NCBI GenBank assembly: GCA_002346645.1
Contig: DEAD01000011.1
Coordinates: 90,760 to 154,759 of the forward strand
DNA: 64,000 nt
Source: Dehalococcoidia bacterium UBA2991
Lineage (GTDB): Bacteria; Chloroflexota; Dehalococcoidia; Tepidiformales; Tepidiformaceae
Direction of reading: 5' to 3'
The notes under the pieces are model-generated. The model was given only the letters and a program-made list of their open reading frames with translations, did no database searches and was not told where the DNA came from. The position numbers and the translations under genes are program-made. Of this stretch, positions 4,594-49,990 are shown piece by piece; the first letter of the stretch is position 1; every line of letters starts with the position of its first letter.

Positions 4594-4845
4594 TTATCTC
4601 CGTACCGTTTCGTAGCGGCCCTTGCTCTTGACGCGGCGCATGAGCTTGGCGTCGATCGCACTGTTCAATCGATCATTGAGTTCTTCCGTTAGGTTTTCCA
4701 GTTCAGGAGAACCCTCTTGGTGGTCCGACCTCCAACGGCGGAGTGCCTCTTTCCCTTCGAAGGATATGTCGGCATTGTCTATTGCAATCGCGCTGACAAG
4801 CATCATCAGCGACCATGCCTCTTGTTCTTCAAGTAAGACGATCAT
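4594..4845 (-). CDS. Small hypothetical protein (83 aa), 'RWRS' paralog 1
   Basis: The ATG lies 3 nt after the TAA of the crotonase-like gene. EALRRWRSDHQEGSPELENL aligns with AMLKRWRSSEMKLGSDELDDL of the next gene. No family recognised. Confidence 0.6.
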   Translation of the reverse strand: MIVLLEEQEAWSLMMLVSAIAIDNADISFEGKEALRRWRSDHQEGSPELENLTEELNDRLNSAIDAKLMRRVKSKGRYETVRR

Positions 4846-4848
4846 GAG

Positions 4849-5496
4849 TTATTCCCCAATAAACTTTGGCGGGCGCTTCTCAAGGAATGCTCGCACGCCT
4901 TCCTGCCGATCTTTGGTCGCTTGTAGGAGCAAGGTCAAATCGGTTTCGAATCGCAGTGCCTGTTCTAGTGGCTGATTTAGCCCTCTCCAAAGTGCTTCTT
5001 TTGCTAGCCGAGTTGCGATTGGGCCCCTGGTTGCTATCACCTCAGCGACCTCTTTTGCCAGCTCCCTTGCGCTACCTTTAGGGCCCACCCGTGAGACTAA
5101 TCCGTCCTCTAAAGCTTGTGCTCCTGTCAGTTTTGCAGGGATTGATTCCACGGTTTCCAGCTGAAGTAGAGTGCACGCTCGTGCTGCTGTGAGTTTGTCC
5201 ATGGTCCCGCCATTCAGTTGGATAGCGGCCCCCTCATCGCAAATCCGTATGTCACAGCCCAATGCGAGTGCTGCTTCTTCGCCTATCAATTGTTTGTCGA
5301 AAGCAAATATCACTGGCAGTGGGTAATCTTGCCATAACCAGCGAACCAACTCTCCAGGCCATGCCCCGAAGTCCTGGGTGGCACCTGCTTCGATAACTAC
5401 AACCCGTGCTTTCCCGTCTGTGAAACCTTCTAGCTCTTGTACAACGTCTTCTGCATGAACGCCCGGTGCCAGTTTCAGCTGCTTGACGGTGCTCAT
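4849..5496 (-). CDS. Crotonase-fold protein with a degenerate active-site region
   Basis: 215 aa. The C-terminus QEGVRAFLEKRPPKF is the canonical crotonase ending. The usual GxGxxFxAGxD oxyanion segment is replaced by IEAGATQDFGAWPGE. Confidence 0.7.
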   Translation of the reverse strand: MSTVKQLKLAPGVHAEDVVQELEGFTDGKARVVVIEAGATQDFGAWPGELVRWLWQDYPLPVIFAFDKQLIGEEAALALGCDIRICDEGAAIQLNGGTMDKLTAARACTLLQLETVESIPAKLTGAQALEDGLVSRVGPKGSARELAKEVAEVIATRGPIATRLAKEALWRGLNQPLEQALRFETDLTLLLQATKDRQEGVRAFLEKRPPKFIGE

Positions 5497-5617
5497 GGCG
5501 CAAGCCTACTGGTTGGCGGATTCCCCGTCTGGCTCTTTGTCGCGTACCTGTCCATTTCCCAAAACTATTTAGTGGTCCGCTTGCTCTACTCTGGTGGGCC
5601 CTCCATGATCTCCCACG

Positions 5618-6115
5618 ATGGCTGACTTTACTGCTGCTAGGCCCGTTGAGGCCGAGAAGAGCGTTGTTGTTCATGATCGCCAAGCTCGGCCTGAGGGTCC
5701 CTCTGATCGCCAAGACCTCGGCCATATGCTTCTACTTGTAGTAATTGGGGTGATCTTTAGCGCTGCCCTAATAGCCCTTGCTTTTCAGGCCCGCGCAAGT
5801 TGGACCGAGGTGCGTGATTGGGTTGTTCCCTTGACTATCCCTGCCTACGCCATTGGAGGGATTTCTTTAGCTTATCTTGTCTCTCGCCGTGCCTGGATGG
5901 AGGTTTCAACCGGCCTGACGCTCCTTTTCTTTACTGTGGCGCTAACGGGATTCAACCTCTGGCGCGCCGCTCTTACCACCGGCCCCGATGGTCTTCGTGA
6001 CAACCTTTCGATAACTACGGGTGTTTTTCTTGGGCTCAGTATTGCTGCACTCGCTGCTGGGATGGTCTGGGTAGAGGCCCGTCGTCCCACGCGCCCCCCT
6101 GTTCCTGAACTTTAG
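5618..6115 (+). CDS. Hypothetical integral membrane protein
   Basis: 165-aa ORF with four hydrophobic helices (LLLVVIGVIFSAALIALAF, LTIPAYAIGGISLAYLV, GLTLLFFTVALTGF, VFLGLSIAALAAGMVWV). The start is uncertain because an internal ATG at MLLLVV is possible. Confidence 0.5.
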   Translation: MADFTAARPVEAEKSVVVHDRQARPEGPSDRQDLGHMLLLVVIGVIFSAALIALAFQARASWTEVRDWVVPLTIPAYAIGGISLAYLVSRRAWMEVSTGLTLLFFTVALTGFNLWRAALTTGPDGLRDNLSITTGVFLGLSIAALAAGMVWVEARRPTRPPVPEL

Positions 6116-6189
6116 CTTAGCTCTGTAGGACTGCTTGCTTCCGCAGGTCGGTCGTCTCCCAATAGGTTCTCCTGCTGTTCTTGAGGCGA

Positions 6190-6894
6190 CTAGAGATCAG
6201 CTATGCCATTAGACGAGGCAGTTGTGGTTCCGCCTGTCGTCTCGCATTCAAGTAACCGACCGAATTGTCTTACGAATGCTTCTGCTACCTCTGCCACCGA
6301 GATCGCCCTTCCAGCCTCTGCGGACAGGCTCGTCATTTCGGTGTTTTCAAGGCCGCATGGGTTCATCAACGCAATATGCCCCATGTTTGGTGCCACATTG
6401 AGAGCCGCTCCGTGCATCGACACGAATCTACGCACATGCAGTCCCACAGACCCCACCTTTTTCTCCCCCACCCAGGCGCCTCGTGCACATTCGTGTCGGT
6501 GACCCTCCACCCCCCACTCCTCTAAAACCCCGAACATGGTGTTCTCAAGAGCTTCAACATAGTCAACTACCCCAATCCCCCACTGCCGCAAGTCGATGAT
6601 CCCATATGCGACCAGCTGTCCTGGACCGTGATAGGTGATGTCACCACCCCGCTCTGTTTGGGCTACCTCTATGCCGGCTGCCTTCACAATCTCGTCGGTC
6701 GTACGTAGGTTGGGTTTGGGATGCTTTCTTCCCAGTGTGAAGACAGGTTGATGCTCTGTTAACAGCAGCGTGTCTTCGCCCTCTCCACGCATCCTCTCTG
6801 CCTGCAGCTGTTGCTGCAGGTGGTGGGCCTTTTTGTAGTCTGTCAGCCCCAGATCGCGAACTTTGATCGTGCGCTTTCCCAGAGAATCGCTCAT
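6190..6894 (-). CDS. lipB: Octanoyltransferase (lipoyl(octanoyl) transferase)
   Basis: 234 aa. LLLTEHQPVFTLGR, RGGDITYHGPGQLVAY and KKVGSVGLHV match LipB signatures. Confidence 0.9.
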   Translation of the reverse strand: MSDSLGKRTIKVRDLGLTDYKKAHHLQQQLQAERMRGEGEDTLLLTEHQPVFTLGRKHPKPNLRTTDEIVKAAGIEVAQTERGGDITYHGPGQLVAYGIIDLRQWGIGVVDYVEALENTMFGVLEEWGVEGHRHECARGAWVGEKKVGSVGLHVRRFVSMHGAALNVAPNMGHIALMNPCGLENTEMTSLSAEAGRAISVAEVAEAFVRQFGRLLECETTGGTTTASSNGIADL

Positions 6895-6928
6895 GTGTCT
6901 AGCGTAGCGAGGGTGGTTCCCTTCGCGA

Positions 6929-7759
6929 TTAGGAGCCGCCTGCTATCTCTGCTCCAATCCCCTCGATCGCATCCCAATCCTCTTCACGAAGGGGCTGTAG
7001 CTCCCCTTTCCGATACTGATCGTACAGCCGAAAGAGTGCGTCCTTGTGAGGTCGAACCCTTCCGATAGGGCAATCCTCCCAGTCTTCCACTGACTCATCG
7101 CAATATCCTGTGCGCAATTCGCCGCATTTTGGCTGTAAGTAGCTCCCCAACTCTGGGACGGCCTTTGCTACCTCTGCTCGCAGCAGTGCGGCTACGCGGC
7201 GAAACTCCCACTGCGCCCGAGTGCACAGTCGCAGATCACAGATATGCAGCAAGCTTTGGAAGTTGACGGTGATCTTAAAGTTCGTTGTAGTCGCGTTGGG
7301 TAGCAGGAAGCGGGCGTCCTCTGCTGGTACCCCCGCGTCTACCAGTTCTTCGTATAACGCCCCTGCCTTTCCGAAAAGATCCTCCATTTTCTCCGCCATC
7401 CCTGCCTTCTCAACGCTTTTCGGGATGCTGTAGGGGAATTCACCTTTTTTGTATGTCACATATCGTTGGCTCTGCTGTTCGAATGAGATTCCCACGCGGT
7501 GCCGCACGAACTGGTGACTAAATGCGCGCGAAACTCCTGCGATGGCGAATTCAAACCAGACCTGTTCCAATGGGCTCGCGTGCCCTGTCTTGAGCCTTTC
7601 CACGATGAAGGATTGCATCTTCTCTCGGGGGATGCGTTCATCCTCGATACGTGTTGCTACTTGCTGGGGGGTTAGTTGGCTGTAGCACGTGCGGTACGCC
7701 ATGTAGAGCGACCGCATCGGATCCTCCGAGTGCCCGAGCAAAGTTACTTCGATAGCCAT
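6929..7759 (-). CDS. thyX: FAD-dependent thymidylate synthase
   Basis: ThyX motif RHRVGISFEQQSQRY (RHRxxSxxxxSxR). The track ORF extends to 7825. I prefer the ATG at 7759-7757 (MAIEVTLLGH...), which has a GGAGAG SD about 7 nt upstream. Confidence 0.9.
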   Translation of the reverse strand: MAIEVTLLGHSEDPMRSLYMAYRTCYSQLTPQQVATRIEDERIPREKMQSFIVERLKTGHASPLEQVWFEFAIAGVSRAFSHQFVRHRVGISFEQQSQRYVTYKKGEFPYSIPKSVEKAGMAEKMEDLFGKAGALYEELVDAGVPAEDARFLLPNATTTNFKITVNFQSLLHICDLRLCTRAQWEFRRVAALLRAEVAKAVPELGSYLQPKCGELRTGYCDESVEDWEDCPIGRVRPHKDALFRLYDQYRKGELQPLREEDWDAIEGIGAEIAGGS

Positions 7760-7897
7760 CGCAAACTCTCCGGCGGGACGGAAGTAGATTCCCGTTACCG
7801 AACCATGTTTGGGGCATTCTCGCACAAATGATTAGGTGTCTTCGCGAGTTGACACTGATCTGGAAGATTCCCTTGGAATTATGGAGACCCCCGCCCC

Positions 7898-8551
7898 TCA
7901 GTCGCTATGAAATAGTCTGCGTTCCTCGATGCCGATTTTGATTAGATATCTACCGGTTTCGCAGGCCCGTCCCTTTTGGTGTGAGATCAGTTCACGCACA
8001 TCTGCAGGGGTATCAAGATCGAGAGCTAAAGCAGGTTCCTTCGCCTGGAGAACTTCCAGTCCTGCTTTCTGTGCCGCTGCCCTGTGCAAGTCGCCGCTAC
8101 CCCCGCCAAAAGCTAACGAAAATAGTCCTGGTGGACGGAGAAGCATTGCATTGGTTCCCCCATCTTCGGGGATAACGAGTGTGGCTGAAGGGGAGGGGGG
8201 TGCTTGGATAATTAGATTGTGTAGGGCTTCCGGGGTTGCCAGTGGAAGATCAGCGTGAAGGATTAATAGTTCTTTGACAGAGAGCGCATCAGAGGCATAC
8301 TCGAGTTGTTCGTTAAGCCCATGCCGATTTGGATCCTCGGTGAGGATTGTTACCCCGTTCGGAACCATCGCGAAGACGTCCTCGTCCGAAGTCAAAACCA
8401 CTGCTTTCATGTTTGCGCCCTCGACGGCTGCCAATATCGTCCTCATGAAACGCCGAACCAGCTCTGCCCGCTCTGTCGGCTCCAAAAGTGCTGCTAGGCG
8501 ACCTTTTGCACGGTCTAGTCTGTTTACCGGTATCAGTACCGTTGGGGGCAT
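7898..8551 (-). CDS. cofC: 2-phospho-L-lactate (or phosphoenolpyruvate) guanylyltransferase, F420 biosynthesis
   Basis: 217 aa. The N-terminus VLIPVNRLDRAKGRLAALL...ERAELVRRFMRTIL is the CofC/FbiD-type pattern (IPVK..AKSRL), and the size fits. Confidence 0.7.
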   Translation of the reverse strand: MPPTVLIPVNRLDRAKGRLAALLEPTERAELVRRFMRTILAAVEGANMKAVVLTSDEDVFAMVPNGVTILTEDPNRHGLNEQLEYASDALSVKELLILHADLPLATPEALHNLIIQAPPSPSATLVIPEDGGTNAMLLRPPGLFSLAFGGGSGDLHRAAAQKAGLEVLQAKEPALALDLDTPADVRELISHQKGRACETGRYLIKIGIEERRLFHSD

Positions 8552-8578
8552 GCTGGCGATCGTACCGCGAATTGAGAG

Positions 8579-8962
8579 TTACCCCGCCCTGAGCACGAGG
8601 CGTAACGCGGCTCCTCCTTCCCCCAATTTAGTTTCCTGCTCTATCTGCAATAAAGTTCCTTCTACAGCTGCTCGTAGTTCCCTTGGGGATGGGCTTTGAT
8701 CCTCGTCATCACTGATTAGCCACCCCTTGGAGCCGCTAACCACTGACAGCATCCAACTGAGCTTGCTAATCCCCTCGGTGGTCAACTCTCCCTGTTGTGG
8801 CCACCACACGATTTGCATCGCTGGTTCTGCCACTTGTAACGAACTCACCACCATTGGACGAGGTTCGATGCCACTAGCTTCTGCAAGCACGTAGTCCGGG
8901 GGGTCAATGAGCATCGTGCGCATCCCGCTAAGTTCCAGGCCTAGGCCTGTGAGAGTGCTCAT
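8579..8962 (-). CDS. Hypothetical protein, DUF3052-like
   Basis: The pattern MQIVWWPQQGEL...GWLISDDEDQSPSPRELRAAVEG...AALRLV resembles actinobacterial DUF3052 proteins, recalled from memory. The track start at 9025 overlaps secA by 47 nt, so I prefer the internal ATG at 8962-8960 (MSTLTGLG...). The start remains uncertain. Confidence 0.5.
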   Translation of the reverse strand: MSTLTGLGLELSGMRTMLIDPPDYVLAEASGIEPRPMVVSSLQVAEPAMQIVWWPQQGELTTEGISKLSWMLSVVSGSKGWLISDDEDQSPSPRELRAAVEGTLLQIEQETKLGEGGAALRLVLRAG

Positions 8963-8978
8963 ATGAATTCTGGTCCGA

Positions 8979-11600
8979 CTAGGCGAGGTTGCCGTGGCAC
9001 TTTTTGAATTTTTTCCCGCTGCCACAATGGCATGGGTCGTTACGTCCGATCTTCTTAGCTCCGGCTCTTGGCGCTTCCGCTGTTACTGTAGCGCCCTGGC
9101 CACCCGCCCTCGCGCCGTTTGTTGAAACTTCTCTGTTGCTTGCGGAGTCTGGCTGCGGTCTTCGAGCTGTAGTGGCGCGGTTCGGAGGTGCTGGGGGGAG
9201 ATCCTTTGCTCGCATTTTGAAAACTGCTTGCGCTACTTGGCGGCGGATGTTTCCCTGAAGCTGCTGAAACATGTCGTAGCCTTCCCGTTTGAAAGCTACC
9301 AGCGGGTCGACCTGCGCATAAGCCTGTAATCCCACGCTCTGGCGTACTTCATCAACCGCTGTCAAATGCTCCCGCCAGTGATAGTCGATTGTTTCGAGCA
9401 GGAGCAACTGTTCCAGCTTGCGGGCTACTTCATCGCCTACCGTGTCTTCGATCTCCTCGTAGCGGTCCTCGATCTTGTCTAGTGCTACATCTGCGATGCG
9501 TTCTTGCTTCTCCGCAATCTCTTCCAGTGCTGGCAGGATGTCGGGAGGCATGATTTCACCCAGCTCTGCGTGTACTAACTTCGCGTCGAAACCTTCATCG
9601 CGGTTTCTTTCGATAATGCCGTCAATCTCATCCGTTACGAATGAGAATACGTTCTCTCGCACGTCCGCTCCCTGAAGCACCTTGTCTCTTTCCGTATACA
9701 AAACTGCGCGCTGCTCATTGATGACATCGTCGAATTCCACTAGTCGCTTGCGGATGTCGAAGTTATAGCCCTCCACTTTTTGCTGAGCCTGCTCGATTGC
9801 GCGGGTCACCATGCGTGATTCCAGTGGCATGTCCTCCGTCATTCCCATCTTCTCCAGCATTCCTGGTACCCAGTCCGGTGCGAATCGCTGCATGATGTCG
9901 TCTCCGAATGACACAAAGAATCGACTTGAGCCTGGATCGCCCTGTCGGCCCGCCCGCCCGCGTAACTGGTTATCGATGCGTCTTGATTCGTGACGTTCTG
10001 TCCCGATTACGTGTAGCCCGCCGGCCTTTGCAACCCCTTCTCCCAGCTTGATATCTGTACCGCGCCCTGCCATGTTTGTGGCAATTACTACCGCCGCTGC
10101 TTCCCCTGCATTTTCCACAATATTTGCTTCTCGTTCGTGTTGCTTAGCATTAAGCACCTCGTGCTTAATGCCTCGACGAAGAAGCAATTGACCTAGGTAT
10201 TCGGACTTCTCAATTGAGGTGGTTCCCACTAGCACCGGACGGCCCTGCCCGTGCATTTCGATGATCTCTTCCACTACCGCCGCAAATTTGGCCTTCTCGT
10301 TGATGTAGACCATGTCCTCTCGATCCCCACGAACCATTGGCATGTTCGTAGGGATAGCTACTACATCGAGGTTGTAGATCCTCGCGAACTCCTCTGCTTC
10401 AGTCTCTGCCGTTCCCGTCATCCCCGCTAGCTTGGCGTACAGCCGGAAGTAGTTCTGGAAGGTGATTGTGGCGTGGGTCAGCGATTCCCGTTGGATGGGG
10501 ACAGCTTCCTTCGCTTCTACTGCCTGGTGGATTCCGTGGCTCCAGCGTCGACCGGGCATCATGCGCCCTGTGAATTCGTCGACGATGATGATTTCTCGAT
10601 CTCGTACCACGTAATCACGATCAGGACGCTTTAGGTATTCCGCATCCAGTGCTGCTTCCAGGTGGCGTGCAAGTCGAGGGTCTCCCCCAAACAGGTTGTC
10701 TACTCTCAGCGCTCGCTCGATCTTTGCGATACCCGTTTCTGTCAATGCCACATGTTTGGCCTTCTGGTCGAGTGCATAGTCCAGGTCTGCATGGAGGCCA
10801 CGTACGGCTCGCGCGAACATCTGGTAGGTGCCGCTAGCTTCTTCTGCCTGTCCGCTGATGATGAGTGGCGTCCGTGCCTCGTCAATAAGGATGTTGTCGA
10901 CCTCGTCGACGATTGCAAAGAAGAGTGGCCGCTGCGTTTTTAGCTCGCTTTCCCGCACCATATTGTCGCGAAGGTAGTCGAAACCGAACTCGTTGTTCGT
11001 GCCATACGTTACGTCGGTCCGGTAGACGTCTCGGCGCTCGCAGGGTCGTAGGTCCTCCAAGCCTCCCTCTCCGTCCTCGCCTGGGCGATAGCCTGGCTCG
11101 TACAGGTACTGGATGTGATCGTTTTGGATTACGCCTAGGCTCATCCCAAGTGCGTGAAAAATAGGCCCGTACCAAGCTGCATCTCGACGTGCGAGGTAGT
11201 CGTTAACCGTTACCAGGTGTGCGCCTTTTCCAGCCAATGCGTTTAGGTACAGGGGGCCGATTGCAGTTAGGGTCTTGCCCTCCCCCGTCTTCATCTCTGC
11301 GATCTTTCCTTGGTGTAGTACCAAGCCGCCCATCATCTGCACTGGGTAGGGACGTTGTCCCATCTGTCGCCAGGCCACCTCTCGAACCGTCGCGAAAGCC
11401 TCTGGTACGAGGTCCTCGAGTGTCTCTCCTGCGGCTAGCCGTTCGCGGAATTCGCCTGTTAATTCCCGCAGCTTTTCATCTGGGAATGCCGCGAACTTGT
11501 CGTTCAATTCCTCGATCGCGGTAACCGAGGATTCAAGGCGGTTAACCTCGCGCTCGTTAGAGTCGCCCACGATGCGGCCGATAAAGCCAAGCTTTGGCAT
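8979..11600 (-). CDS. secA: Preprotein translocase ATPase SecA
   Basis: 873 aa. Walker A MKTGEGKT, DEVDNILIDEARTPLIISG, TNMAGRGTDIKLG, and the C-terminal zinc finger CHCGSGKKFKKCHG. Confidence 0.97.
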   Translation of the reverse strand: MPKLGFIGRIVGDSNEREVNRLESSVTAIEELNDKFAAFPDEKLRELTGEFRERLAAGETLEDLVPEAFATVREVAWRQMGQRPYPVQMMGGLVLHQGKIAEMKTGEGKTLTAIGPLYLNALAGKGAHLVTVNDYLARRDAAWYGPIFHALGMSLGVIQNDHIQYLYEPGYRPGEDGEGGLEDLRPCERRDVYRTDVTYGTNNEFGFDYLRDNMVRESELKTQRPLFFAIVDEVDNILIDEARTPLIISGQAEEASGTYQMFARAVRGLHADLDYALDQKAKHVALTETGIAKIERALRVDNLFGGDPRLARHLEAALDAEYLKRPDRDYVVRDREIIIVDEFTGRMMPGRRWSHGIHQAVEAKEAVPIQRESLTHATITFQNYFRLYAKLAGMTGTAETEAEEFARIYNLDVVAIPTNMPMVRGDREDMVYINEKAKFAAVVEEIIEMHGQGRPVLVGTTSIEKSEYLGQLLLRRGIKHEVLNAKQHEREANIVENAGEAAAVVIATNMAGRGTDIKLGEGVAKAGGLHVIGTERHESRRIDNQLRGRAGRQGDPGSSRFFVSFGDDIMQRFAPDWVPGMLEKMGMTEDMPLESRMVTRAIEQAQQKVEGYNFDIRKRLVEFDDVINEQRAVLYTERDKVLQGADVRENVFSFVTDEIDGIIERNRDEGFDAKLVHAELGEIMPPDILPALEEIAEKQERIADVALDKIEDRYEEIEDTVGDEVARKLEQLLLLETIDYHWREHLTAVDEVRQSVGLQAYAQVDPLVAFKREGYDMFQQLQGNIRRQVAQAVFKMRAKDLPPAPPNRATTARRPQPDSASNREVSTNGARAGGQGATVTAEAPRAGAKKIGRNDPCHCGSGKKFKKCHGNLA

Positions 11601-11655: not shown

Positions 11656-12174
11656 CTAGTCGACTAGCGCGGCGATGACATCCTCTAGGATTGCATCGGC
11701 TTTTTTTCGCATCTCCTCGTCATTGGCATCCTGGATTGGATGGGGAACGAACAGGCGGCGCACCTCAGGCAGGCCGAGGGACTCAGATTGTGCTGCTGCG
11801 GCCTCAATAAACTCGTCTGAGGCAATAAAAACAGAGGGTATCCCGTTGATTTCGAGCCAGGTCGTATCGTGCACACTGCACGTCGTGCAGGATCCTCAGT
11901 CCGCAAGTCCCTCGATAACGAAGTCAGCCTCTTTCGCTAACTTCTGCCGCAGCGCCTCTGGTGCTGGTTTAGTGAAAGTAGGTTTACTGAATCGGAGGAT
12001 GTCCACATCTGGAAGCCGTTCGCGTAAGCGGATCTCTAACTGGTTCAATAGCACGTCGCCTCGGGGTTTTGAGATATCTAGCAGTGCAACAGTTCCGCTA
12101 ATGGCCTCTGGTCGCTTCGTTAGTGAGCGCCGTACTGGAACACGTTCGTCTGTCGGGTCCAGAATCGTCGTCAT
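11656..12174 (-). CDS. Putative selenoprotein (172 aa) with a U-G-S-C-T-T-C motif. In-frame UGA at 11898-11896 is read as Sec.
   Basis: Track ORFs 11896..12174(-) and 11656..11874(-) share one frame and are separated by a single TGA plus 7 sense codons (G S C T T C S). The fused product reads ...FVIEGLAD-U-GSCTTCSVHDTTWLEINGIPSVF... A hairpin follows directly after the UGA. A GGGAGG SD lies 8 nt before the ATG at 12174. Confidence 0.7.
11876..11890 (-). promoter_or_regulatory. Candidate SECIS-type hairpin for the UGSC gene
   Basis: On the minus strand, CUGCAC-GAC-GUGCAG forms a perfect 6-bp stem that starts 5 nt after the UGA. An alternative fold is UGCAC-(10 nt)-GUGCA. Confidence 0.45.
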
Positions 12175-12293
12175 AGGTCCCGCCTCCCTGGAGTCTGACC
12201 GTACTTCAATTATAGCCTCCCCTTCGAATTCTCCAGGGCGCTACACTTGCTTCGTGAAGGCAGCTATATAGACCCAGGCAAGGAGGTGTCCCT
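12175..12293. promoter_or_regulatory. Divergent control region between the two selenoprotein genes
   Basis: 119-bp spacer. On the minus strand there is a perfect TATAAT at 12214-12209 with a weak -35 (TGGAGA, 15-nt spacing). On the plus strand there is TATATA at 12265-12270. Both genes have strong SDs (GGGAGG at 12188-12183, AGGAGG at 12281-12286). Confidence 0.4.
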
Positions 12294-12542
12294 ATGGCTG
12301 AACCCGCAATGTTGATTTCAATTGAGTACTGTGTCCCCTGAAACTACACCGCAAGGGCCGCGTGGACGGCCCAGGAACTCTTGTCTACTTTCGCCGACCA
12401 AACCGGCTCTCTCGCCCTCATCCCTGGTGCCGGGGGTGCCTTTGAAGTGAAAGTGGATGGTGATCTGGTCTTTTCTAAGAAAGAAAAGGGCCGTTACCCC
12501 GAGATCAAGGAGCTGCAGGAAGCAATCGCAGCCCGTCTATAG
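12294..12542 (+). CDS. SelW/SelT/SelH (Rdx) family selenoprotein, 82 aa. UGA at 12339-12341 is read as Sec.
   Basis: Absent from the ORF track. My translation is MAEPAMLISIEYCVP-U-NYTARAAWTAQELLSTFADQTGSLALIPGAGGAFEVKVDGDLVFSKKEKGRYPEIKELQEAIAARL*. The IEYCxxU / RAAWxAQELL / G.FEV.VDG.L.FSK...GR.PE pattern is the bacterial Rdx family signature with CxxU in place of CxxC. An AGGAGG SD lies 7 nt upstream. Confidence 0.82.
12355..12372 (+). promoter_or_regulatory. Candidate SECIS hairpin for the SelW-like gene
   Basis: GGGCCG-CGUGGA-CGGCCC forms a perfect 6-bp GC stem with a 6-nt loop containing GU. It starts 13 nt after the UGA. Confidence 0.55.
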
Positions 12543-12585: not shown

Positions 12586-12921
12586 ATGCCTTTTATGCTC
12601 GTTCGGCTCGAGTGCAAATACGGAAAGACACAGGAGTTTCAGGAGGTAATGTCGCACCTCGTGCCTGTGCTTGAAGCGAAGGGCTGGCGATTGCATGGCG
12701 CCTACCAGAACAGCATTGGTCGTCTCAACCGATGCTACGATCTGTGGGAGATGCCAGATGCTAACCATGTCGGATCCGTGCTTGCCCTAGCTGGCCAGGA
12801 GCCTGAATTTCGCGAGTGGGCTGATCGTCTCGGCGATTGCCTTGAGCAAGAGGAGCTCGAATTCATGAGTGAGCTCCCCTACTCCATTGAAGCTCGCCAG
12901 CGGCGTGTTGCTGGGGACTGA
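12586..12921 (+). CDS. NIPSNAP family protein
   Basis: 111 aa, dimeric alpha/beta-barrel type. GWRLHGAYQNSIGRLNRCYDLWEMPD resembles the NIPSNAP core (G.L..v.hlW). A GGAGG SD lies 6 nt upstream. It sits 43 nt after the SelW-like gene on the same strand. Confidence 0.65.
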   Translation: MPFMLVRLECKYGKTQEFQEVMSHLVPVLEAKGWRLHGAYQNSIGRLNRCYDLWEMPDANHVGSVLALAGQEPEFREWADRLGDCLEQEELEFMSELPYSIEARQRRVAGD

Positions 12922-29585: not shown

Positions 29586-30647
29586 GTGATGAAGGTTGGT
29601 AATACTTATCGCGCGGGATGGCTCGGGGAGGCTGGCCCCTCAGCGAGAAAGCTCGAAGAGCTTGGTTATGACTACGCTGGTACAGGCGAGATGGCGCATG
29701 ACCCCATGGTGCTGGCAACTGCTGCAGCACTAGCAACGGAGAGGGTTGAGATCGGCACTCTTGCTATTGCCTTCGCCCGCGCCCCTATGGTGCTCGCAAT
29801 GGGGGCCTGGGATTTGCAGCAAGCAACAGGTGGCCGCTTCGCCCTCAGTCTTGGTAGCCAAGTAAAGGGACATATACAGCGGCGATTTGGTATGCCATGG
29901 AGTGCTCCTGCCCCCCGCATGCGTGACTACATCCGTACTCTGCATGCTATCTGGAGTTCTTTCGATTCGGGTGATAGGCCGGATTACGTTGGTGAGACAT
30001 ACCAATTCACCCTAATGAATCCGCTCTTCCACCCCGGTCCTAATGGTTTCCTTCGCCCCAAGGTTTTTCTCGCCGCTGTTGGTGAGGGTATGACTCGTGT
30101 GGCTGGAGAGGTAGCTGATGGTGTTCTCCCCCATGGATTCACTACTGATAAGTACATGCGAGAGGTCTTCCTTCCGAATGTAGCCAAGGGTCTTGAACGT
30201 GGGGGGCGCACATGGGATGACATTGAGGTAACGGGGGGTGGGTTCGCAGTCTTTGGGGAGGACGAGTCTCAGATCGAACAGAAGCTAGACTCGCTCCGTC
30301 AGCCGATCTCCTTCTACGGCTCAACCCGCAGTTACCACGATGTTTGGCGTGTACATGGCTGGGAAGATTTGGGAATGCAGCTACATTCCATGTCGCTGCA
30401 GGGGAAGTGGGAAGAAATGAAGACAATTATTCCCGAGGACGTCTTGCGTGAGTTTGCGCAGACATCCACCTATGATCGCCTACCTCAGTTCGTGGCTGAG
30501 CACCGAGAGTACTCAAGTCGCATGAACTTGGAGATGCCTGTGGAGACCCACTCTCAGCGTGAGCGCTTCCAGCATGTCTTGCGCGAGGTTCAGAAGGTTG
30601 AAACGCCTCGCATCCCCCGTGGGCTTTCTGGTCTGGATCCGGTGTAA
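29586..30647 (+). CDS. LLM-class probable F420-dependent oxidoreductase
   Basis: 353 aa. LEELGYDYAGTGEMAHDP...GGRFALSLGSQVKGHIQRRFGMPW fits the luciferase-like TIM-barrel family. Confidence 0.75.
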   Translation: MMKVGNTYRAGWLGEAGPSARKLEELGYDYAGTGEMAHDPMVLATAAALATERVEIGTLAIAFARAPMVLAMGAWDLQQATGGRFALSLGSQVKGHIQRRFGMPWSAPAPRMRDYIRTLHAIWSSFDSGDRPDYVGETYQFTLMNPLFHPGPNGFLRPKVFLAAVGEGMTRVAGEVADGVLPHGFTTDKYMREVFLPNVAKGLERGGRTWDDIEVTGGGFAVFGEDESQIEQKLDSLRQPISFYGSTRSYHDVWRVHGWEDLGMQLHSMSLQGKWEEMKTIIPEDVLREFAQTSTYDRLPQFVAEHREYSSRMNLEMPVETHSQRERFQHVLREVQKVETPRIPRGLSGLDPV

Positions 30648-31769: not shown

Positions 31770-32963
31770 ATGCAGCTTCCCTGGCGGCTCAAGTTTGGCC
31801 TCTTCATGGCTCCTTACCACCCTGTTAACGACAGTATGACCCTTACCATCCGTCGGGATATCCGCACAATCCAGTGGCTCGATGAGCTTGGTTACGACGA
31901 GGTTTTTATAGGTGAGCACCACTCTGGGGGCTGGGAACCTATTTCTAGCCCGGAGGTGTTTATTGCTCATGTGGCCCAGGAAACGGAGTCAATCAAGCTA
32001 GGTACAGGGGTTGTTTCTATGGGCTACCACAGCCCGTATATGTTGGCGGAACGCATTCTTCTTCTTGACCACCTCACGCGAGGTCGCGTCATGCTTGGTG
32101 TCGGACCGGGGGCAACTGCGCCTGATAATGCTCAGTTTGGCTTCGACGCGACTGAACTTCGCCCTCGCCTTGATGAGGGCCTTGGAGTCGTACTGCGCCT
32201 TCTGCGTGGCGAGGAGGTCACACACACCAGTCCCGGCTGGTTTACTCTCAAGAACGCCTCTTGTCAGCTCCAGCCTTACCACGAAGAAGGCATCCCGGTA
32301 TTTCTGGCCACGACCTCCTCGCCAGGGGGCGCTGTCATTGCTGGAAAACATGGTGTTGGAATTCTCTCAGGTGGTTCTTTCCAACCACTAGGTCCCGGTC
32401 TCAAGAGCACTTGGGATACCGCTGTGGATTCTGCGGCCCAGAATGGTAAGACTTTAAGTCGGCGTGACTACCGCGTCATGACTCGCATCTACGTTGCTGA
32501 GAGTCGTGAACAGGCTTGTAAAGACATGACGAGAGGTCTTTATCAGTTCGACCGGGACTACATTTCCGGCACTCTTGGGCGTCCGTTCACGTATGAAGGT
32601 CCTCCTGAGGACTATGCGAAATGGTGCGTAGAGAATGGTAGTGCCCTCTTTGGTTCGCCCGAAGAGGTTACGGCTAGTCTTGAACGCCTATGGGAGTCGA
32701 GCAATGGTGGTATTGGGGGCATTCTTCTCATGGGTAACGAGTTTGCTTCTCCTGAGCGAATGCGGAATCACTATGAGCTTCTTGCCCGCTACGTGATGCC
32801 TCACTTTCAGGGCTCGTTTGAAAGGCCCATGCGTTCCCATTCTCGAGCAGTGACAGAGCGCGTTGTAAACAACCAGAACGAGGCTAATGCAACTGCGGCA
32901 GCTATTCGTGCCGCTGGCGGTGAGGTTCCCCCAACCATCCTGGGTACCTCCGTGGAACAATAA
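31770..32963 (+). CDS. LLM-class flavin-dependent monooxygenase/oxidoreductase
   Basis: 397 aa. LGYDEVFIGEHHS and GRVMLGVGPG are luciferase-like monooxygenase patterns. Confidence 0.75.
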   Translation: MQLPWRLKFGLFMAPYHPVNDSMTLTIRRDIRTIQWLDELGYDEVFIGEHHSGGWEPISSPEVFIAHVAQETESIKLGTGVVSMGYHSPYMLAERILLLDHLTRGRVMLGVGPGATAPDNAQFGFDATELRPRLDEGLGVVLRLLRGEEVTHTSPGWFTLKNASCQLQPYHEEGIPVFLATTSSPGGAVIAGKHGVGILSGGSFQPLGPGLKSTWDTAVDSAAQNGKTLSRRDYRVMTRIYVAESREQACKDMTRGLYQFDRDYISGTLGRPFTYEGPPEDYAKWCVENGSALFGSPEEVTASLERLWESSNGGIGGILLMGNEFASPERMRNHYELLARYVMPHFQGSFERPMRSHSRAVTERVVNNQNEANATAAAIRAAGGEVPPTILGTSVEQ

Positions 32964-33027: not shown

Positions 33028-35094
33028 ATGCCCCTCGACCACGTCTTCCGCCCCATTGCTGTTAACAAGACTGAATTTCGTAACCGCGTAGTGCGCTCCG
33101 CTCACGGAACTGGTCTTGGCCGGGGAGAGGTAAACGACGACCTCATTGCCTATCACGAAGCGCGTGCCCGGGGGGGGGTGGCGATGAGCATTCTCGAAGC
33201 CTCTTCTGTCCATCCCATTTCGGGCCTTGGAGGAGTTGCTGCGTATTCAGATGCAATGATTCCTGGCTACAAGCGACTTGCTGAGGCCACTCATCGCCAC
33301 GGAATGGTGATGATGCAGCAACTCATTCACACTGGAGCACACGCCGTTCCTGCCGATGGCAGCCCCCCTTGGGCTCCGTCTGCCATCCCTAGTGTCCGGC
33401 ATCTACGTATGTCTGAGGGACAAGGGGATGTTCCTATTGAGATGACCCAGGCAATGATCGACGAAACGATCGCTGCCTATGCGGCCGCTGCCCGAAGAGC
33501 TCAGGAAGGCGGACTTGACGGTGTTGAGATGCACTATGGTCATAGTTTCCTCATCATGCAGTTTCTTTCGCCGACGACGAATCGGCGTACCGACAAGTAC
33601 GGGGGCAGCCCAGAGAATCGCTGGCGCTTTGGTAAGGAGATTGCTGCTGCAATCAGAGAAGCTACTGGTCCAGACTTCATAATTGGGGCCAGACTAAGTG
33701 GTCGAGAAGGCGTGCCTGGTGGGCTTGAGCCCCAGGATTGCAGAGAAATAGCACTTGATCTTGAGGCTACTGGTCTAGTCGACCTCTTTAGTATCTCGAC
33801 TGCCGGCTACCTTGACTTCGACCGCCTTATCGGTGGGATGCATGAGAAACATGAGTATGAGCTTCCCTGGAGTGCTCCCGCCAGCCGTGCCCTTACTAAG
33901 CCAACATTCGTCGTAGGCCGAATACTCACCCTTGCTGAGGCTGATGCACTTATTGCTAGAGGCGATGCTGACATGGTCTCCATGATTCGCGCTACCATCG
34001 CCGATCCAGAGATCGTGCGGAAAACCCAGGAGGGTCGTGTCGATGACGTACGGCCCTGCCTTGGCTGTAACCAAGGTTGTATTGGTGGTTCAACGGGACC
34101 TCTGATGCAGTTCGGCTGTGTAGTCAACGTGGGTGCCGGTCAGGAGCTTCGTTACGGTGACGACAAGATTTCCATGGTTGGCGAGGGCAAGAGGGTCCTT
34201 GTGGCGGGGGGTGGCCCTGCGGGCTTGGAGGCAGCCCGCGTAGCGGCACTTCGTGGGCACCACGTTACCCTTTGCGAGGCCAGTGACGGCCTTGGCGGTC
34301 AGGTGAAGCTTGCCCGCAAGGCGCCTACTCGGGATGAATTCGGTAAAGATGTCGACTGGTGCGAGGCTCAGCTGCGCAAGCTTGAGGTTGATATTCGCCT
34401 CGAGACGCGCGTTGACCGAGAGCTTATTGATATTGAAATGCCTGATGCTGTCATTGTCGCGACAGGGTCCATCCCTCGCCGGGATGGTTTCCAGGCTGCT
34501 CGTCCCGGCAGTCCTGTTGAAGGCATGGATCTTGACAATGTTTTCACCAGCTGGGAGGTAATGAGTGACGAGGCTGACCCTGGTGAAACCGCTTTGGTTT
34601 TCGACGATGTTGGGCACTTCGAGGCGATTGCGGTAGCTGAGTACCTTTTGGAAAAAGGGGTCGCTGTCATCTTTGCGACTGCCTATACCAGTGTTGGGCC
34701 ACAAACTGCTGGGGCATTGATGCGGGACCCGGCTCTCCGCCGTCTCACTGACCATCGCAGTGGTTTCACGCTGGTTCCCCGTATGCAGCTGGAAAAGGTG
34801 TCTGATAGGACAGTAACTCTGCGTAGCCTCGACTCGGGTCAAGATCATGAGTACGAAGCAGATAGTGTCGTGGTTCTTTCCGGGAATGTCGCTAATCGTG
34901 GCCTTGCCGATGCCCTTGATGGTTACGAAGGGGAAGTTGTTGTCATTGGAGATGCCTTAGCGCCGCGGCGGATCGAGAGAGCCGTGCATGATGGCCACTA
35001 CGCTGGCTTAGGTGTCGGCAGCGAGGAGGCCGGGACCAGTTGGTCAGGGCGCGCAGTTACTCCTCCCCCCAACCCTCTTTCAGGGGGTGGTTAG
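33028..35094 (+). CDS. OYE-type NADH:flavin oxidoreductase fused to an FAD/NAD(P)-binding domain (2,4-dienoyl-CoA reductase FadH-like)
   Basis: 688 aa. N-terminal OYE TIM barrel (GVEMHYGHSFLIMQFLSP..N.RTD.YGGS), Fe-S motif RPCLGCNQGC, then the Rossmann motif VLVAGGGPAGLEAA. Confidence 0.88.
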   Translation: MPLDHVFRPIAVNKTEFRNRVVRSAHGTGLGRGEVNDDLIAYHEARARGGVAMSILEASSVHPISGLGGVAAYSDAMIPGYKRLAEATHRHGMVMMQQLIHTGAHAVPADGSPPWAPSAIPSVRHLRMSEGQGDVPIEMTQAMIDETIAAYAAAARRAQEGGLDGVEMHYGHSFLIMQFLSPTTNRRTDKYGGSPENRWRFGKEIAAAIREATGPDFIIGARLSGREGVPGGLEPQDCREIALDLEATGLVDLFSISTAGYLDFDRLIGGMHEKHEYELPWSAPASRALTKPTFVVGRILTLAEADALIARGDADMVSMIRATIADPEIVRKTQEGRVDDVRPCLGCNQGCIGGSTGPLMQFGCVVNVGAGQELRYGDDKISMVGEGKRVLVAGGGPAGLEAARVAALRGHHVTLCEASDGLGGQVKLARKAPTRDEFGKDVDWCEAQLRKLEVDIRLETRVDRELIDIEMPDAVIVATGSIPRRDGFQAARPGSPVEGMDLDNVFTSWEVMSDEADPGETALVFDDVGHFEAIAVAEYLLEKGVAVIFATAYTSVGPQTAGALMRDPALRRLTDHRSGFTLVPRMQLEKVSDRTVTLRSLDSGQDHEYEADSVVVLSGNVANRGLADALDGYEGEVVVIGDALAPRRIERAVHDGHYAGLGVGSEEAGTSWSGRAVTPPPNPLSGGG

Positions 35095-48940: not shown

Positions 48941-49990
48941 GTGACTGCGCAAGAAATTCGGCTAACGGATTTGACGGGTTGCGGGGGCTGAGCGTCTAAG
49001 GCAGGGCCCCAGGCCCTGGCGCAGGTGCTGTCGCCGCTGACCGTAGACTTTGATCCGATGCAACATCCAGACCTTCTGGCTGGGCTGGGGGCGCCTGATG
49101 ATGCTGCCGTCTACCGAATCAATAATCGAACTGCCGTAATCGCTACCGTCGACTTTTTCGCCCCGCTGGTTGATGACCCTTGGCAATACGGCGCAATCGC
49201 TGCTGCTAATGCTATGTCTGATGTTTACGCGATGGGGGGGGAGGTGGTCCTTGCCCTCAACATTGCCGCATTTCCTGAGGACCTGCCCTCGGAAGTCGCT
49301 GCAGAAATTATCAGGGGTGGTGCTGACAAGGTTGCTGAGGCCGGAGGAGTTGTCGCGGGTGGTCACACAATTTGGGACGATGAGCCTAAGTTTGGCTTGA
49401 GTGTCCTTGGCATTGCGACCCCTTCGCGTCTCCTTCGTAAGGCCGCGCTTCGTCCTGGCGACTTTCTATATCTCACAAAATCGCTGGGTACAGGAGTGAT
49501 CCTCTCTAACGATAGAGGCCAGGAAGAGCATTCTGCTTGGCTGAATACTGCTATCGCTTCGATGCTCCATCTCAACCGCCATGCGGCCCATCTAGCTATC
49601 AGTCATCGCTTACGGGCAGCAACCGACATTACTGGCTTTGGTCTTGTTGGCCATCTCTGGGAGATGGTTGAGAGCTCTGGCGTTTCCGTTACTGTGGAAG
49701 CCGCGGCCCTACCGCTTCTTCCTGGTGCACGGGAATCTGCTGAAAGCGGTATCCAGACTGGAGGGGAGGTTCGTAACCGAGACTGGGTCGGAGACAATTT
49801 CACGGTTGCTAACGGTGTGCCTCCTGCTCTCGCCTCTATAGCTTTTGATCCACAAACTTCCGGAGGCCTTCTGCTTGCGTGCTCGCCTCGCAAGGCCAGA
49901 GTCCTTGAAGCAGCTTTCGCTGCCGACAACGAATCCCTGCATCTCATTGGTCGTGTGGCTAAAGGCGCCCCCCATATTCAGCTCTTCTAG
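48941..49990 (+). CDS. selD: Selenide, water dikinase (selenophosphate synthetase), Sec-containing form. UGA at 48989-48991 is read as Sec17.
   Basis: The track ORF (49025..49990) lacks the catalytic N-terminus. Extending in frame gives (GTG)MTAQEIRLTDLTGCGG-U-ASKAGPQALAQVLSPL... This aligns residue-for-residue with E. coli SelD [26 protein letters not shown] (I6-R7-L8-T9, U17=C17, K20). The body of the protein (DDAAVYRI..., DFFAPLVDDPWQYGAIAAANAMSDVYAMGG) is SelD. Confidence 0.9.
49002..49018 (+). promoter_or_regulatory. Candidate SECIS hairpin for selD
   Basis: CAGGGCC-CCA-GGCCCUG forms a perfect 7-bp stem (or 6 bp with a 5-nt loop). It starts 11 nt after the UGA. Confidence 0.55.

What the first reader, a model, noticed from the sequence alone, without database searches (positions are those of the whole stretch)
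11656..12174. Two track ORFs are one UGA-recoded gene: a putative 172-aa selenoprotein with a U-G-S-C-T-T-C motif
ORF 11896..12174(-) ends ...FVIEGLAD with TGA at 11898-11896. ORF 11656..11874(-) (GTG start) is in the same frame. Only that TGA and 7 sense codons (GGA TCC TGC ACG ACG TGC AGT) separate them. Reading UGA as Sec gives ...FVIEGLAD-U-GSCTTCS-VHDTTWLEINGIPSVF..., which places a UxxCxxC redox-type motif exactly at the junction. A perfect 6-bp hairpin (CUGCAC-GAC-GUGCAG, 11890-11876) begins 5 nt after the UGA, where a bacterial SECIS would lie. The window independently shows Sec usage, through selD with its own UGA and a CxxU gene 120 bp away. TGA is otherwise a normal stop here (e.g. 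1690-1692), so this would be site-specific recoding rather than a reassigned code. I recall an NCBI family label 'UGSC family (seleno)protein' that fits the motif, but I cannot verify it offline. To my knowledge no function is established for it.
Basis: partly seen in the sequence, partly recalled or inferred. Interest (0 to 1): 0.8.

Follow-up and report, generated by a model that had tools for sequence, protein, structure and literature searches.

The report
UGSC-family selenoprotein gene split by UGA

Summary
ORFs 11896-12174(-) and 11656-11874(-) are one gene interrupted by an in-frame TGA at 11898-11896.

The fused 172-aa protein scores above the curated cut-offs of NCBIfam NF041046 "UGSC family (seleno)protein" (165.8 bits against 125) and Pfam PF24696 (158 bits).

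In 80 related loci from Chloroflexota, Gammaproteobacteria, Binatia, Myxococcota and an alphaproteobacterium, the same column is always TGA. It is always followed in frame by GSCTTCS[V/L/M]HD. Cysteine forms exist.

TGA is an ordinary stop in 6 of 21 genes checked. The window also holds a Sec-type selD and a CxxU SelW-like gene.

The family has been known since 2007-2008, so novelty is low. Three things are added here:

- The predicted fold is flavodoxin-like, not thioredoxin-like. The domain is a distant homologue of the Sec region of glycine/proline-reductase selenoprotein B, with the same UxxCxxC motif.
- In most other lineages the gene follows a TlpA-like gene with an unknown core domain. 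That gene is absent from this window.

Function remains inferred.

The parts
11656..12174 (-). Complete UGSC-family selenoprotein gene (172 codons plus a TAG stop). ATG is at 12174-12172 and TAG at 11658-11656.
   Evidence: the fused translation matches NF041046 (165.8 bits, cut-off 125) and PF24696 (158 bits, profile positions 1-171 of 172); 80 loci match residues 1-172.
11896..11898 (-). In-frame UGA read as selenocysteine (residue 93).
   Evidence: TGA at this column in 81 of 81 orthologues; the column is Cys in Cys-form homologues (TGT in P0003). TGA is otherwise a stop here.
11878..11898 (-). Codons for the U-G-S-C-T-T-C motif (Sec93, Cys96, Cys99).
   Evidence: the amino acids are invariant in 81 of 81 with synonymous variation. 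C/U93, G94 and C96 are nearly invariant across 65 diverse family members, while the third Cys is not. The GrdB/F/H motif is UxxCxxC (PMC6778437, PMC13188914).
11868..11882 (-). Best-supported SECIS upper hairpin, CGUGCA-GUG-UGCACG. The loop is at 11876-11874. The stem starts 13 nt after the UGA and the loop 19 nt after it.
   Evidence: this is the RNAalifold consensus, paired in 78 of 78, with pair 21-33 as GC 49, GU 28 and AU 1. ACG 80/81, TGC 81/81, AGT 81/81 and NTG 81/81, against much lower background use of these codons. The hairpin meets the loop, stem, G[G/U] and spacing criteria of the published bSECIS model (PMC13188914).
11876..11890 (-). It is mutually exclusive with the hairpin above.
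   Evidence: 93.6% of cells are paired, the outer pair is broken in 29 of 78, and there is no double change. The loop is only 11 nt after the UGA.: -7.5 kcal/mol against -7.4 for the other hairpin.
12183..12188 (-). Shine-Dalgarno-like GGGAGG, 8 nt before the ATG. A TATAAT lies at 12214-12209.
   Evidence: Read directly from the sequence (output). Not tested further.
12294..12542 (+). Context: a divergently oriented SelT/SelW/SelH-family gene with CxxU (TGA at 12339-12341). It is a neighbour only in the window's own clade.
   Evidence: TIGR02174, 74 bits; it is adjacent in 12 of 80 loci, all Tepidiformaceae-type; a hairpin begins 13 nt after its UGA.
48941..49990 (+). Context: selD (selenophosphate synthetase), itself with an in-frame TGA at 48989-48991 (..LTGCGG-U-ASKAGP..). 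The start codon is approximate.
   Evidence: TIGR00476, 350.6 bits (cut-off 125).

Best explanation
This is a single gene for a 172-residue selenoprotein of the known UGSC family (NCBIfam NF041046, Pfam PF24696).

**Recoding.** During translation the UGA at 11898-11896 is read as selenocysteine. The most likely signal is a short mRNA hairpin that starts 13 nt downstream (11882-11868; 6 bp, apical loop GUG). It would recruit SelB carrying Sec-tRNA(Sec). This step is inferred from conservation and was not shown experimentally.

**Protein.** It is predicted to be a five-stranded alpha/beta flavodoxin-like domain. Sec93 sits at the end of strand 3 and the start of helix 3. Cys96 follows three residues later and Cys99 three after that. 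Sec93 and Cys96 most likely cycle between a selenol/thiol pair and a selenenylsulfide (inferred from the motif and its position).

**Relatives.** The domain is a distant homologue of the Sec-bearing segment of selenoprotein B of the glycine, sarcosine, betaine and D-proline reductases. Those proteins carry the same UxxCxxC motif.

**Partner.** In most other lineages the gene is co-transcribed, and sometimes fused, with a protein made of a TlpA/ResA-like CxxC thioredoxin domain plus an uncharacterised domain of about 370 residues with an invariant cysteine. The likeliest role is therefore the selenol-bearing redox or nucleophile subunit of a two-protein thiol-dependent reductase. The substrate is unknown.

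**This organism.** In this Tepidiformaceae-like bacterium the partner is not adjacent. The gene sits between secA and a SelW-like selenoprotein gene.
For: **Identity**
- HMM hits above the curated cut-offs span the junction.
- 1475 database relatives were found. Most are cut at '...LAD' or start after the UGA.
- 80 genomic loci match residues 1-172, and 81 of 81 have TGA followed by a conserved in-frame GSCTTCS.
- Cys forms exist.
- The family is described in PMC2398784, PMC1976440 and PMC13188914.

**Sec usage in this organism**
- A Sec-type selD and a CxxU SelW-like gene lie in the window.
- TGA is a stop in 6 of 21 genes.

**SECIS**
- The RNAalifold consensus is the downstream hairpin. It is 100% paired and shows one G-C to A-U double change.
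- Synonymous sites are frozen exactly over it. AGT is used 81/81 although it makes up 5% of Ser codons elsewhere in these genes. TTG is used for 28 of 29 Leu against 9% elsewhere.
- It starts the same distance after the UGA as the SelW-like gene's hairpin.
- In Gammaproteobacteria it extends into a lower stem.

**Fold**
- AlphaFold2 model of the Cys homologue P0003: pLDDT 91.4, five beta-alpha units, Cys95 between strand 87-93 and helix 96-111.
- Foldseek returns only flavodoxin or Rossmann-like hits.

**Selenoprotein B homology**
- Of 65 family members, 40 hit the GrdB model (best E 2.9e-10), 24 GrdF, 22 TIGR01918, 13 GrdH and 10 PrdB.
- The Cys/Sec maps to the same model position in eight members.

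**Partner**
- Natural fusions exist.
- The partner gene lies directly upstream on the same strand in 59 of 75 loci with enough upstream sequence.
- Its N-terminal domain is ResA/TlpA-like.
Against: - There is no experimental evidence of Sec insertion. selA, selB and tRNA-Sec are not in the 64-kb window.
- No Rfam family matched.
- Neither hairpin is more stable than shuffled sequence. The shuffle control for covariation is not significant, because five of the six pairs never vary. The two hairpins are isoenergetic in this window.
- The Cys form P0003 keeps the same hairpin, so part of the conservation could be inherited rather than selected.
- The window protein's own GrdB hit is weak: E 0.022, 13.7 bits against a cut-off of 602.
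- The partner core shows no similarity to GrdE/PrdA or to any Pfam or NCBIfam family. It is absent from the window.
- For these reasons the reductase role is an inference.
Confidence: 0.85

Rival explanations
1. The TGA is a true stop. The region encodes two independent small proteins of 92 aa and 72 aa, the second starting at GTG 11874.
For: Gene callers list them separately. Public databases hold hundreds of ~94-aa and 72-aa entries.
Against: - The 7 codons between the TGA and the GTG keep their amino acids in 81 of 81 genes while varying synonymously.
- The position corresponding to the GTG is TTG, CTG or ATG in other lineages, within a continuous frame.
- Both HMMs run through the junction.
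- Full-length Cys forms exist.
- The database halves are what gene callers produce at any Sec codon.
Confidence: 0.03
2. The TGA is a sequencing error or a recent nonsense mutation in a Cys-type gene, making this a pseudogene.
For: TGA differs from TGC or TGT by one base. The Cys form P0003 uses TGT.
Against: TGA is found at the same column in 81 of 81 independent assemblies from at least five phylum- or class-level groups. The downstream half is under clear purifying selection.
Confidence: 0.01
3. The gene is a selenoprotein, but the SECIS is the reader's hairpin (11890-11876), 5 nt after the UGA.
For: It is a perfect 6-bp stem in the window at -7.5 kcal/mol, marginally better than the alternative. 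It is 93.6% paired across homologues.
Against: - Its loop lies 11 nt after the UGA, outside the 16-37 nt of the published bacterial model. The second loop base is A rather than G or U (PMC13188914).
- The outer pair is broken in 29 of 78 sequences and the closing pair in L021.
- It does not explain the frozen third base of AGT or the invariant NTG codon.
- RNAalifold prefers the other hairpin.
Confidence: 0.12
4. Alternative function: a stand-alone thioredoxin-fold thiol/selenol oxidoreductase, as guessed in the 2008 GOS paper. On this view it is unrelated to the reductase B proteins and needs no dedicated partner.
For: [quoted passage not shown] UxxC motifs are typical of Trx-like selenoproteins. 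In this window no partner gene is adjacent.
Against: - The confident AlphaFold2 model has five beta-alpha units. Its Foldseek hits are flavodoxin or Rossmann-like proteins, with no thioredoxins.
- GrdB/GrdF/PrdB profile hits recur, with Sec aligned.
- Operon and fusion linkage to a partner is near-universal outside this clade.
Confidence: 0.1

Closest known systems
UGSC family (seleno)protein (NCBIfam NF041046, Pfam PF24696; 'UGSC-containing protein' of Zhang & Gladyshev, e.g. ABI76733.1 of Hyphomonas neptunium)
   Same: The full-length HMM match is above the curated cut-offs. The protein has the U-G-S-C motif at the family's Sec/Cys column, is about 170-180 residues long, and has an in-frame UGA followed by a hairpin. 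Like the rest of the family, it has no known function.
   Different: Nothing essential differs. In this Tepidiformaceae clade the gene is detached from the TlpA-like partner gene that precedes it in most other lineages. It lies instead between secA and a SelW-like gene.
Selenoprotein B of glycine, sarcosine, betaine and D-proline reductases (GrdB/GrdF/GrdH/PrdB; TIGR01917, TIGR01918, TIGR04483)
   Same: The UxxCxxC motif is the same. Profile similarity covers about 80 residues around the Sec, and Sec or Cys maps onto the same model position (about 347 of GrdB, about 148 of PrdB). In the model the Sec follows a beta-strand at the start of a helix.
   Different: It is much smaller (172 aa against about 240 or 436). 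Its scores are far below the family cut-offs. No GrdE/PrdA-type pyruvoyl proprotein, grdA or grdCD gene is nearby. It occurs in aerobic marine, freshwater and soil lineages rather than in Stickland fermenters.
Thioredoxin-fold UxxC/CxxU selenoproteins (Trx-like, Prx-like, SelW-like)
   Same: It is a short redox-type motif pairing Sec with a Cys three residues away. It is abundant in the same aquatic metagenomes. A SelW-like gene is the neighbour here.
   Different: The predicted fold is a flavodoxin-like three-layer alpha/beta domain, not beta-alpha-beta-alpha-beta-beta-alpha. No thioredoxin-family HMM or structural hit was found for the UGSC domain.

Membership tests
UGSC family (NF041046 / PF24696) | Full-length match to the family HMM above the curated cut-off | tested here: met
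   NF041046: 165.8 bits against a cut-off of 125, residues 28-170. PF24696: 158 bits against 25, residues 3-171. Each half alone scores below the NCBIfam cut-off (53.7 and 74 bits).
UGSC family (NF041046 / PF24696) | U/C-G-S-C motif at the family's conserved column | tested here: met
   The window has U93-G-S-C96. C/U93, G94 and C96 are nearly invariant in 65 diverse members. The motif is identical in 81 of 81 close orthologues.
UGSC family (NF041046 / PF24696) | In-frame TGA aligned with Cys in homologues (a Sec/Cys pair) | tested here: met
   TGA in 81 of 81. TGT in P0003. Cys in 64 full-length representatives.
UGSC family (NF041046 / PF24696) | Bacterial SECIS-type hairpin downstream of the UGA | tested here: met
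   The hairpin at 11882-11868 has a 6-bp stem and a 3-nt loop GUG lying 19 nt after the UGA. This meets the loop, stem, G[G/U] and spacing criteria quoted in PMC13188914. Its energy alone is -7.4 kcal/mol, against a threshold of -7.5. It is conserved in 78 of 78. No Rfam model matched.
UGSC family (NF041046 / PF24696) | Sec-decoding machinery in the genome (selA, selB, selC, selD) | tested here: inconclusive
   selD is present and itself contains Sec. No tRNA-Sec, selA or selB is in the 64-kb window. The rest of the genome was not available.
UGSC family (NF041046 / PF24696) | Selenium actually incorporated into the protein | not testable with these tools
   This needs 75Se labelling or mass spectrometry.
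Selenoprotein B of glycine/sarcosine/betaine/D-proline reductases (GrdB/F/H, PrdB) | Match to the family models above the curated cut-off | tested here: not met
   Window protein: TIGR01917 13.7 bits (cut-off 602.2), GrdF 12 bits (cut-off 800). The best family member reaches E 2.9e-10. This indicates homology but not membership.
Selenoprotein B of glycine/sarcosine/betaine/D-proline reductases (GrdB/F/H, PrdB) | UxxCxxC motif, with Sec at the family's Sec position | tested here: met
   The window has U93-x-x-C96-x-x-C99. The hit coordinates place Sec or Cys at GrdB model position 346-350 and PrdB position 148 in eight members, counted from the hit boundaries without gaps. The motif is cited from PMC6778437. 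That this model position is the Sec of GrdB rests on my recollection (U350) and was not checked.
Selenoprotein B of glycine/sarcosine/betaine/D-proline reductases (GrdB/F/H, PrdB) | Partnered with a pyruvoyl proprotein (GrdE/PrdA) and, for Grd, with grdA and grdCD | tested here: not met
   None of the window ORFs scanned matched such a family. The conserved partner in other lineages shows no GrdE/PrdA similarity.
Thioredoxin-fold selenoproteins | Thioredoxin fold around the redox motif | tested here: not met
   The AlphaFold2 model (pLDDT 91.4) has five beta-alpha units. The top 50 Foldseek PDB hits are mostly flavodoxin, lumazine synthase, CheY-like and other alpha/beta domains, with no thioredoxins.

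The most novel reading that the evidence does not exclude
The UGSC protein and its usual neighbour (TlpA-like CxxC domain plus an unannotated ~370-residue domain with an invariant Cys) may form a widespread, uncharacterised selenium-dependent reductase. On this reading UGSC is a minimal 'selenoprotein B' module, evolutionarily derived from or ancestral to the Stickland glycine/proline reductases, but operating in aerobic aquatic and soil bacteria on an unknown substrate. In the window's clade the module has been uncoupled from that partner and placed next to a SelW-like selenoprotein, which may have taken over as its redox partner.
Probability: 0.3. Interest if true: 0.55.

Novelty: already known. 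Interest (0 to 1): 0.22.

Why it matters
**For annotation.** This gene, and hundreds like it in public MAGs, are stored as two 'hypothetical proteins' or with W or G at the Sec position. They should be merged and labelled as UGSC-family selenoproteins.

**For biology.** UGSC is one of the most abundant selenoprotein families in aquatic metagenomes (255 Sec forms in GOS, PMC2398784), yet it has no known function. Three leads found here make that function more testable:
- a flavodoxin-like fold rather than a thioredoxin fold;
- homology to the Sec segment of GrdB/PrdB;
- a near-universal operon partner with a TlpA-like domain.

None of this changes the basic verdict. The finding is a correct rediscovery of a known family.

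Tried and rejected
- **Rfam, gathering thresholds, whole window:** only two tRNAs and no SECIS family.
- **ARAGORN:** no tRNA-Sec.
- **Single-sequence folding:** the hairpins are no more stable than shuffles, so thermodynamics alone proves nothing.
- **Shuffle control for covariation of the 6-bp hairpin:** not significant, because five pairs are fixed by coding. I relied on codon-usage contrasts instead.
- **PDB sequence searches with the protein and with a 65-member profile:** nothing meaningful.
- **Pfam scan of 65 members at E up to 1:** no GRDB (PF07355) hit. The GrdB relationship showed up only with the NCBIfam models.
- **SelW-like adjacency as a functional clue:** it holds only in the window's own clade, 12 of 80 loci. 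I rejected it as a general link.
- **Partner core domain:** no Pfam or NCBIfam family. Foldseek on the two-domain model reported only the N-terminal thioredoxin-like domain, so the core's fold is unidentified.
- **Relaxation of the hairpin in a Cys form:** the one Cys form with DNA available (P0003) still carries the hairpin. The test is uninformative.
- I worked around both.
- **selA and selB among the large ORFs of the window:** not found.

Full report
**1. The observation**

Reading the minus strand shows ...GAG GGA CTT GCG GAC TGA GGA TCC TGC ACG ACG TGC AGT GTG CAC GAT..., with the TGA at 11898-11896. The ORF list gives 11896-12174(-) as 92 aa ending FVIEGLAD. It gives 11656-11874(-) as 72 aa starting at GTG, in the same frame. 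Seven sense codons lie between the TGA and the GTG, so the fused product has 92 + 1 + 7 + 72 = 172 residues with U-G-S-C-T-T-C at the junction.

A GGGAGG lies 8 nt before the ATG at 12174, and the gene ends with TAG.

**2. What it is**

With Sec written as Cys, the fused protein matches NCBIfam NF041046 'UGSC family (seleno)protein' at 165.8 bits (cut-off 125), over residues 28-170. Each half alone is below the cut-off. Pfam PF24696 'UGSC' matches residues 3-171 of the 172-position profile at 158 bits.

A search of 5.8 billion proteins returned 1475 relatives.
- Most are ~94-residue proteins ending '...EALAD', cut at the UGA.
- A search with the C-terminal part returned the matching 72-residue pieces.
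- A few full-length calls carry C (P0003, P0005), G (P0001) or W (P0002, P0004) at the Sec column. The G and W calls look like TGA read under an alternative genetic code.

A scan of one genome per species found 523 relatives. The best 80 loci all match residues 1-172, or nearly so. In all 80, and in the window, the aligned codon is TGA and the frame continues as GSCTTCS[V/L/M]HD. The hosts are:
- Tepidiformaceae and other Dehalococcoidia;
- Anaerolineae;
- Binatia;
- Myxococcota;
- many Pseudomonadales and other Gammaproteobacteria;
- one Marinibacterium.

The window is about 90% identical to Tepidiformaceae MAGs (L001-L006), so it comes from that group of Chloroflexota.

The seven linker codons keep their amino acids while using four Gly codons, six Ser codons, two Cys codons and four Thr codons. 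Only translation through the UGA explains this.

TGA is an ordinary stop in 6 of 21 family-supported genes of the window, so the genetic code is not reassigned. The window also holds two other Sec-type genes:
- selD (TIGR00476, 350.6 bits), with its own in-frame TGA at 48989-48991;
- a SelT/W/H-family gene with C-V-P-U at 12294-12542(+).

The organism therefore uses selenocysteine. No tRNA-Sec, selA or selB lies in the window, and the rest of the genome could not be examined.

The family is already in the literature as the 'UGSC-containing protein'.
- It was one of the most abundant selenoprotein families in the Global Ocean Sampling data, with 255 Sec forms and 21 Cys forms (PMC2398784).
- It is described as of unknown function (PMC1976440).
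- It is listed under NF041046 in a 2026 review (PMC13188914).

**3. The recoding signal**

Two mutually exclusive 6-bp hairpins follow the UGA:
- one 8 nt further on (11882-11868: CGUGCA-GUG-UGCACG).

In the window they are isoenergetic, at -7.5 and -7.4 kcal/mol. Neither is unusual against shuffled sequence.

Comparative data favour the second hairpin. On 78 distinct homologous sequences, RNAalifold returns only the second hairpin. It is paired in 78 of 78. One pair occurs as G-C (49), G-U (28) and A-U (1, a change on both sides in L021). The shuffle controls are not significant for either, because coding fixes most positions.

The stronger argument is codon choice over the second hairpin.

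| Codon after the UGA | Use at this position | Share of that amino acid's codons elsewhere in these genes |
|---|---|---|
| Thr +5 | ACG in 80/81 | 46% |
| Cys +6 | TGC in 81/81 | 71%; Cys +3 is 44 TGC / 37 TGT |
| Ser +7 | AGT in 81/81 | 5% |
| +8, all cases | NTG in 81/81 | not applicable |
| +8 when Leu | TTG in 28 of 29 | 9% |

The frozen U of AGU and the invariant NUG are explained only by the second hairpin, as a loop G-U and two stem pairs.

That hairpin also meets the published bacterial SECIS criteria (PMC13188914, Fig. 2 legend). These are a loop of 3-9 nt, a stem of 4-16 bp, G[G/U] at the start of the loop, and 16-37 nt between the UGA and the loop. Its spacing is 19 nt.

The SelW-like gene of the same window has its hairpin starting the same 13 nt after its UGA. 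In Gammaproteobacteria the upper hairpin is extended by a lower stem. The window lacks that lower stem.

I therefore assign the SECIS to 11882-11868, with moderate confidence. One caveat is that the Cys form P0003 still carries the hairpin. This fits a recent Sec-to-Cys change, but it means the conservation is not proof of function.

**4. How the protein probably works**

An AlphaFold2 model of the Cys homologue P0003 (56% identical to the window protein) was built on 134 aligned rows. It is confident: pLDDT 91.4, pTM 0.85. It has five beta-alpha units. The Sec-equivalent Cys95 lies between strand 87-93 and helix 96-111.

Foldseek against the PDB gives only generic flavodoxin, lumazine-synthase, CheY-like and other alpha/beta matches (TM 0.4-0.5), with no thioredoxins. 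The 2008 suggestion of a Trx-like fold is therefore not supported.

Across 65 diverse full-length members, the nearly invariant residues are K64, C/U93, G94, C96, D103, E108, G111, P113, F122, G134 and P146, in window numbering. Mapped onto the secondary structure of the model, most of these sit at or just after the C-terminal ends of strands, the usual active-site edge of such folds. This placement is inferred, since no coordinates were inspected. The third Cys (C99) is often Trp in Cys forms, so U/C-x-x-C is the core motif.

The weak GrdB hit of the window protein (E 0.022) proved to be systematic. Of the 65 members, 40 hit TIGR01917 GrdB (best E 2.9e-10), 24 GrdF, 22 TIGR01918, 13 GrdH and 10 PrdB. 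Counting from the hit boundaries, the Cys/Sec lands at GrdB model position 346-350 and PrdB position 148 in every case examined. GrdB/F/H carry UxxCxxC after their Sec (PMC6778437; PMC13188914).

The UGSC domain is thus a distant, much smaller homologue of the Sec-bearing segment of the substrate-specific selenoprotein B subunits. It is not a member of those families, because its scores are far below their cut-offs.

**5. Context elsewhere**

The search of 50%-identity representatives (2407 hits) revealed fusions of UGSC with a C-terminal domain of about 370 residues that has no Pfam family. This is the 'Unknown_1' fusion noted in PMC2398784.

The same domain is encoded directly upstream of UGSC, on the same strand, in 59 of 75 loci with enough upstream sequence. 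The gap is often from -4 to +10 nt. It is nearly always preceded by an N-terminal thioredoxin-like domain with a CPTC motif. That N-terminal domain matches ResA/StoA/TlpA by sequence and by predicted structure (TM 0.72-0.79 relative to the targets).

The partner family is large, with more than 7900 relatives, and is annotated only as 'TlpA family protein disulfide reductase'. Its core has an invariant Cys in the motif NAVMAGC-x-PEY. It shows no similarity to GrdE/PrdA or to any other family.

The window and its closest relatives (L001-L011, L014) lack this gene nearby. A profile search of the whole window finds nothing. In this clade UGSC sits between secA and the divergent SelW-like gene instead.

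The best-supported mechanism is a selenol/thiol redox or nucleophile module that normally serves a dedicated partner enzyme and is recycled through a CxxC domain. The substrate is unknown, and this step is inference.

**6. Verdict**

The object is an ordinary member of an already described selenoprotein family, so its novelty is low.

Three things are added here: the reassigned SECIS, the flavodoxin-like fold with homology to GrdB/PrdB, and the near-universal partner gene. I could not check whether these points have been published elsewhere. They are leads to the family's unknown function rather than a new kind of system.

Noticed in passing
window 12294-12542 (+): A SelT/SelW/SelH-family gene with C-V-P-U (TGA at 12339-12341). 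Gene callers list only its C-terminal 53 aa. It has a GC-rich hairpin, GGGCCG-CGUGGA-CGGCCC, at 12355-12372, starting 13 nt after the UGA. It is adjacent to UGSC only in the Tepidiformaceae clade (12 of 80 loci).
   Followed up: partly
window 48941-49990 (+): selD (selenophosphate synthetase) is itself a selenoprotein here (..LTGCGG-U-ASKAGP.., TGA at 48989-48991). A strong hairpin follows the UGA (-23.3 kcal/mol over 49 nt).
   Followed up: partly
L063 4402-5997 (and the position upstream of UGSC in 59 loci): A large family (more than 7900 database relatives) is annotated only as 'TlpA family protein disulfide reductase'. It has an N-terminal CPTC thioredoxin-like domain plus a ~370-residue core with no Pfam or NCBIfam family and an invariant Cys (NAVMAGC-x-PEY). 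It is genetically coupled to UGSC and sometimes fused to it.
   Followed up: partly
L067, L074-L077, L079 (about 4800-8600): In some Dehalococcoidia the UGSC gene is flanked by two or three paralogous copies of the partner core domain, upstream and downstream.
   Followed up: no
database proteins P0001, P0002, P0004, P0071, P0123: Public gene calls for this family take one of two forms. Some are split into two 'hypothetical proteins'. Others carry Gly or Trp at the Sec position, as if TGA had been translated under genetic code 25 or 4.
   Followed up: partly
L081 947-1486: The Cys-form homologue P0003 has TGT in place of TGA but keeps the exact downstream hairpin sequence (TCG TGC AGT GTG CAC GAC). 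This suggests a recent Sec-to-Cys replacement. Its partner gene overlaps it by 4 nt.
   Followed up: partly
window 7898-8551, 29586-30647, 31770-32963, 33028-35094, 51743-53086: The window holds several F420-related or similar genes: cofC, two luciferase-like F420-type oxidoreductases, a CofD-related YvcK and a mycofactocin-type OYE flavoenzyme. These are typical of Chloroflexota and are not connected to the finding.
   Followed up: no
window 12586-12921 (+) and 8579-9025 (-): Two conserved syntenic ORFs (111 aa and 148 aa) flank the locus and have no NCBIfam match. Both are conserved in the Tepidiformaceae loci.
   Followed up: no
window 11675-12271 (+): A 198-aa ORF lies antisense to the whole UGSC gene. 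It is almost certainly a shadow ORF of the real gene on the minus strand.
   Followed up: no
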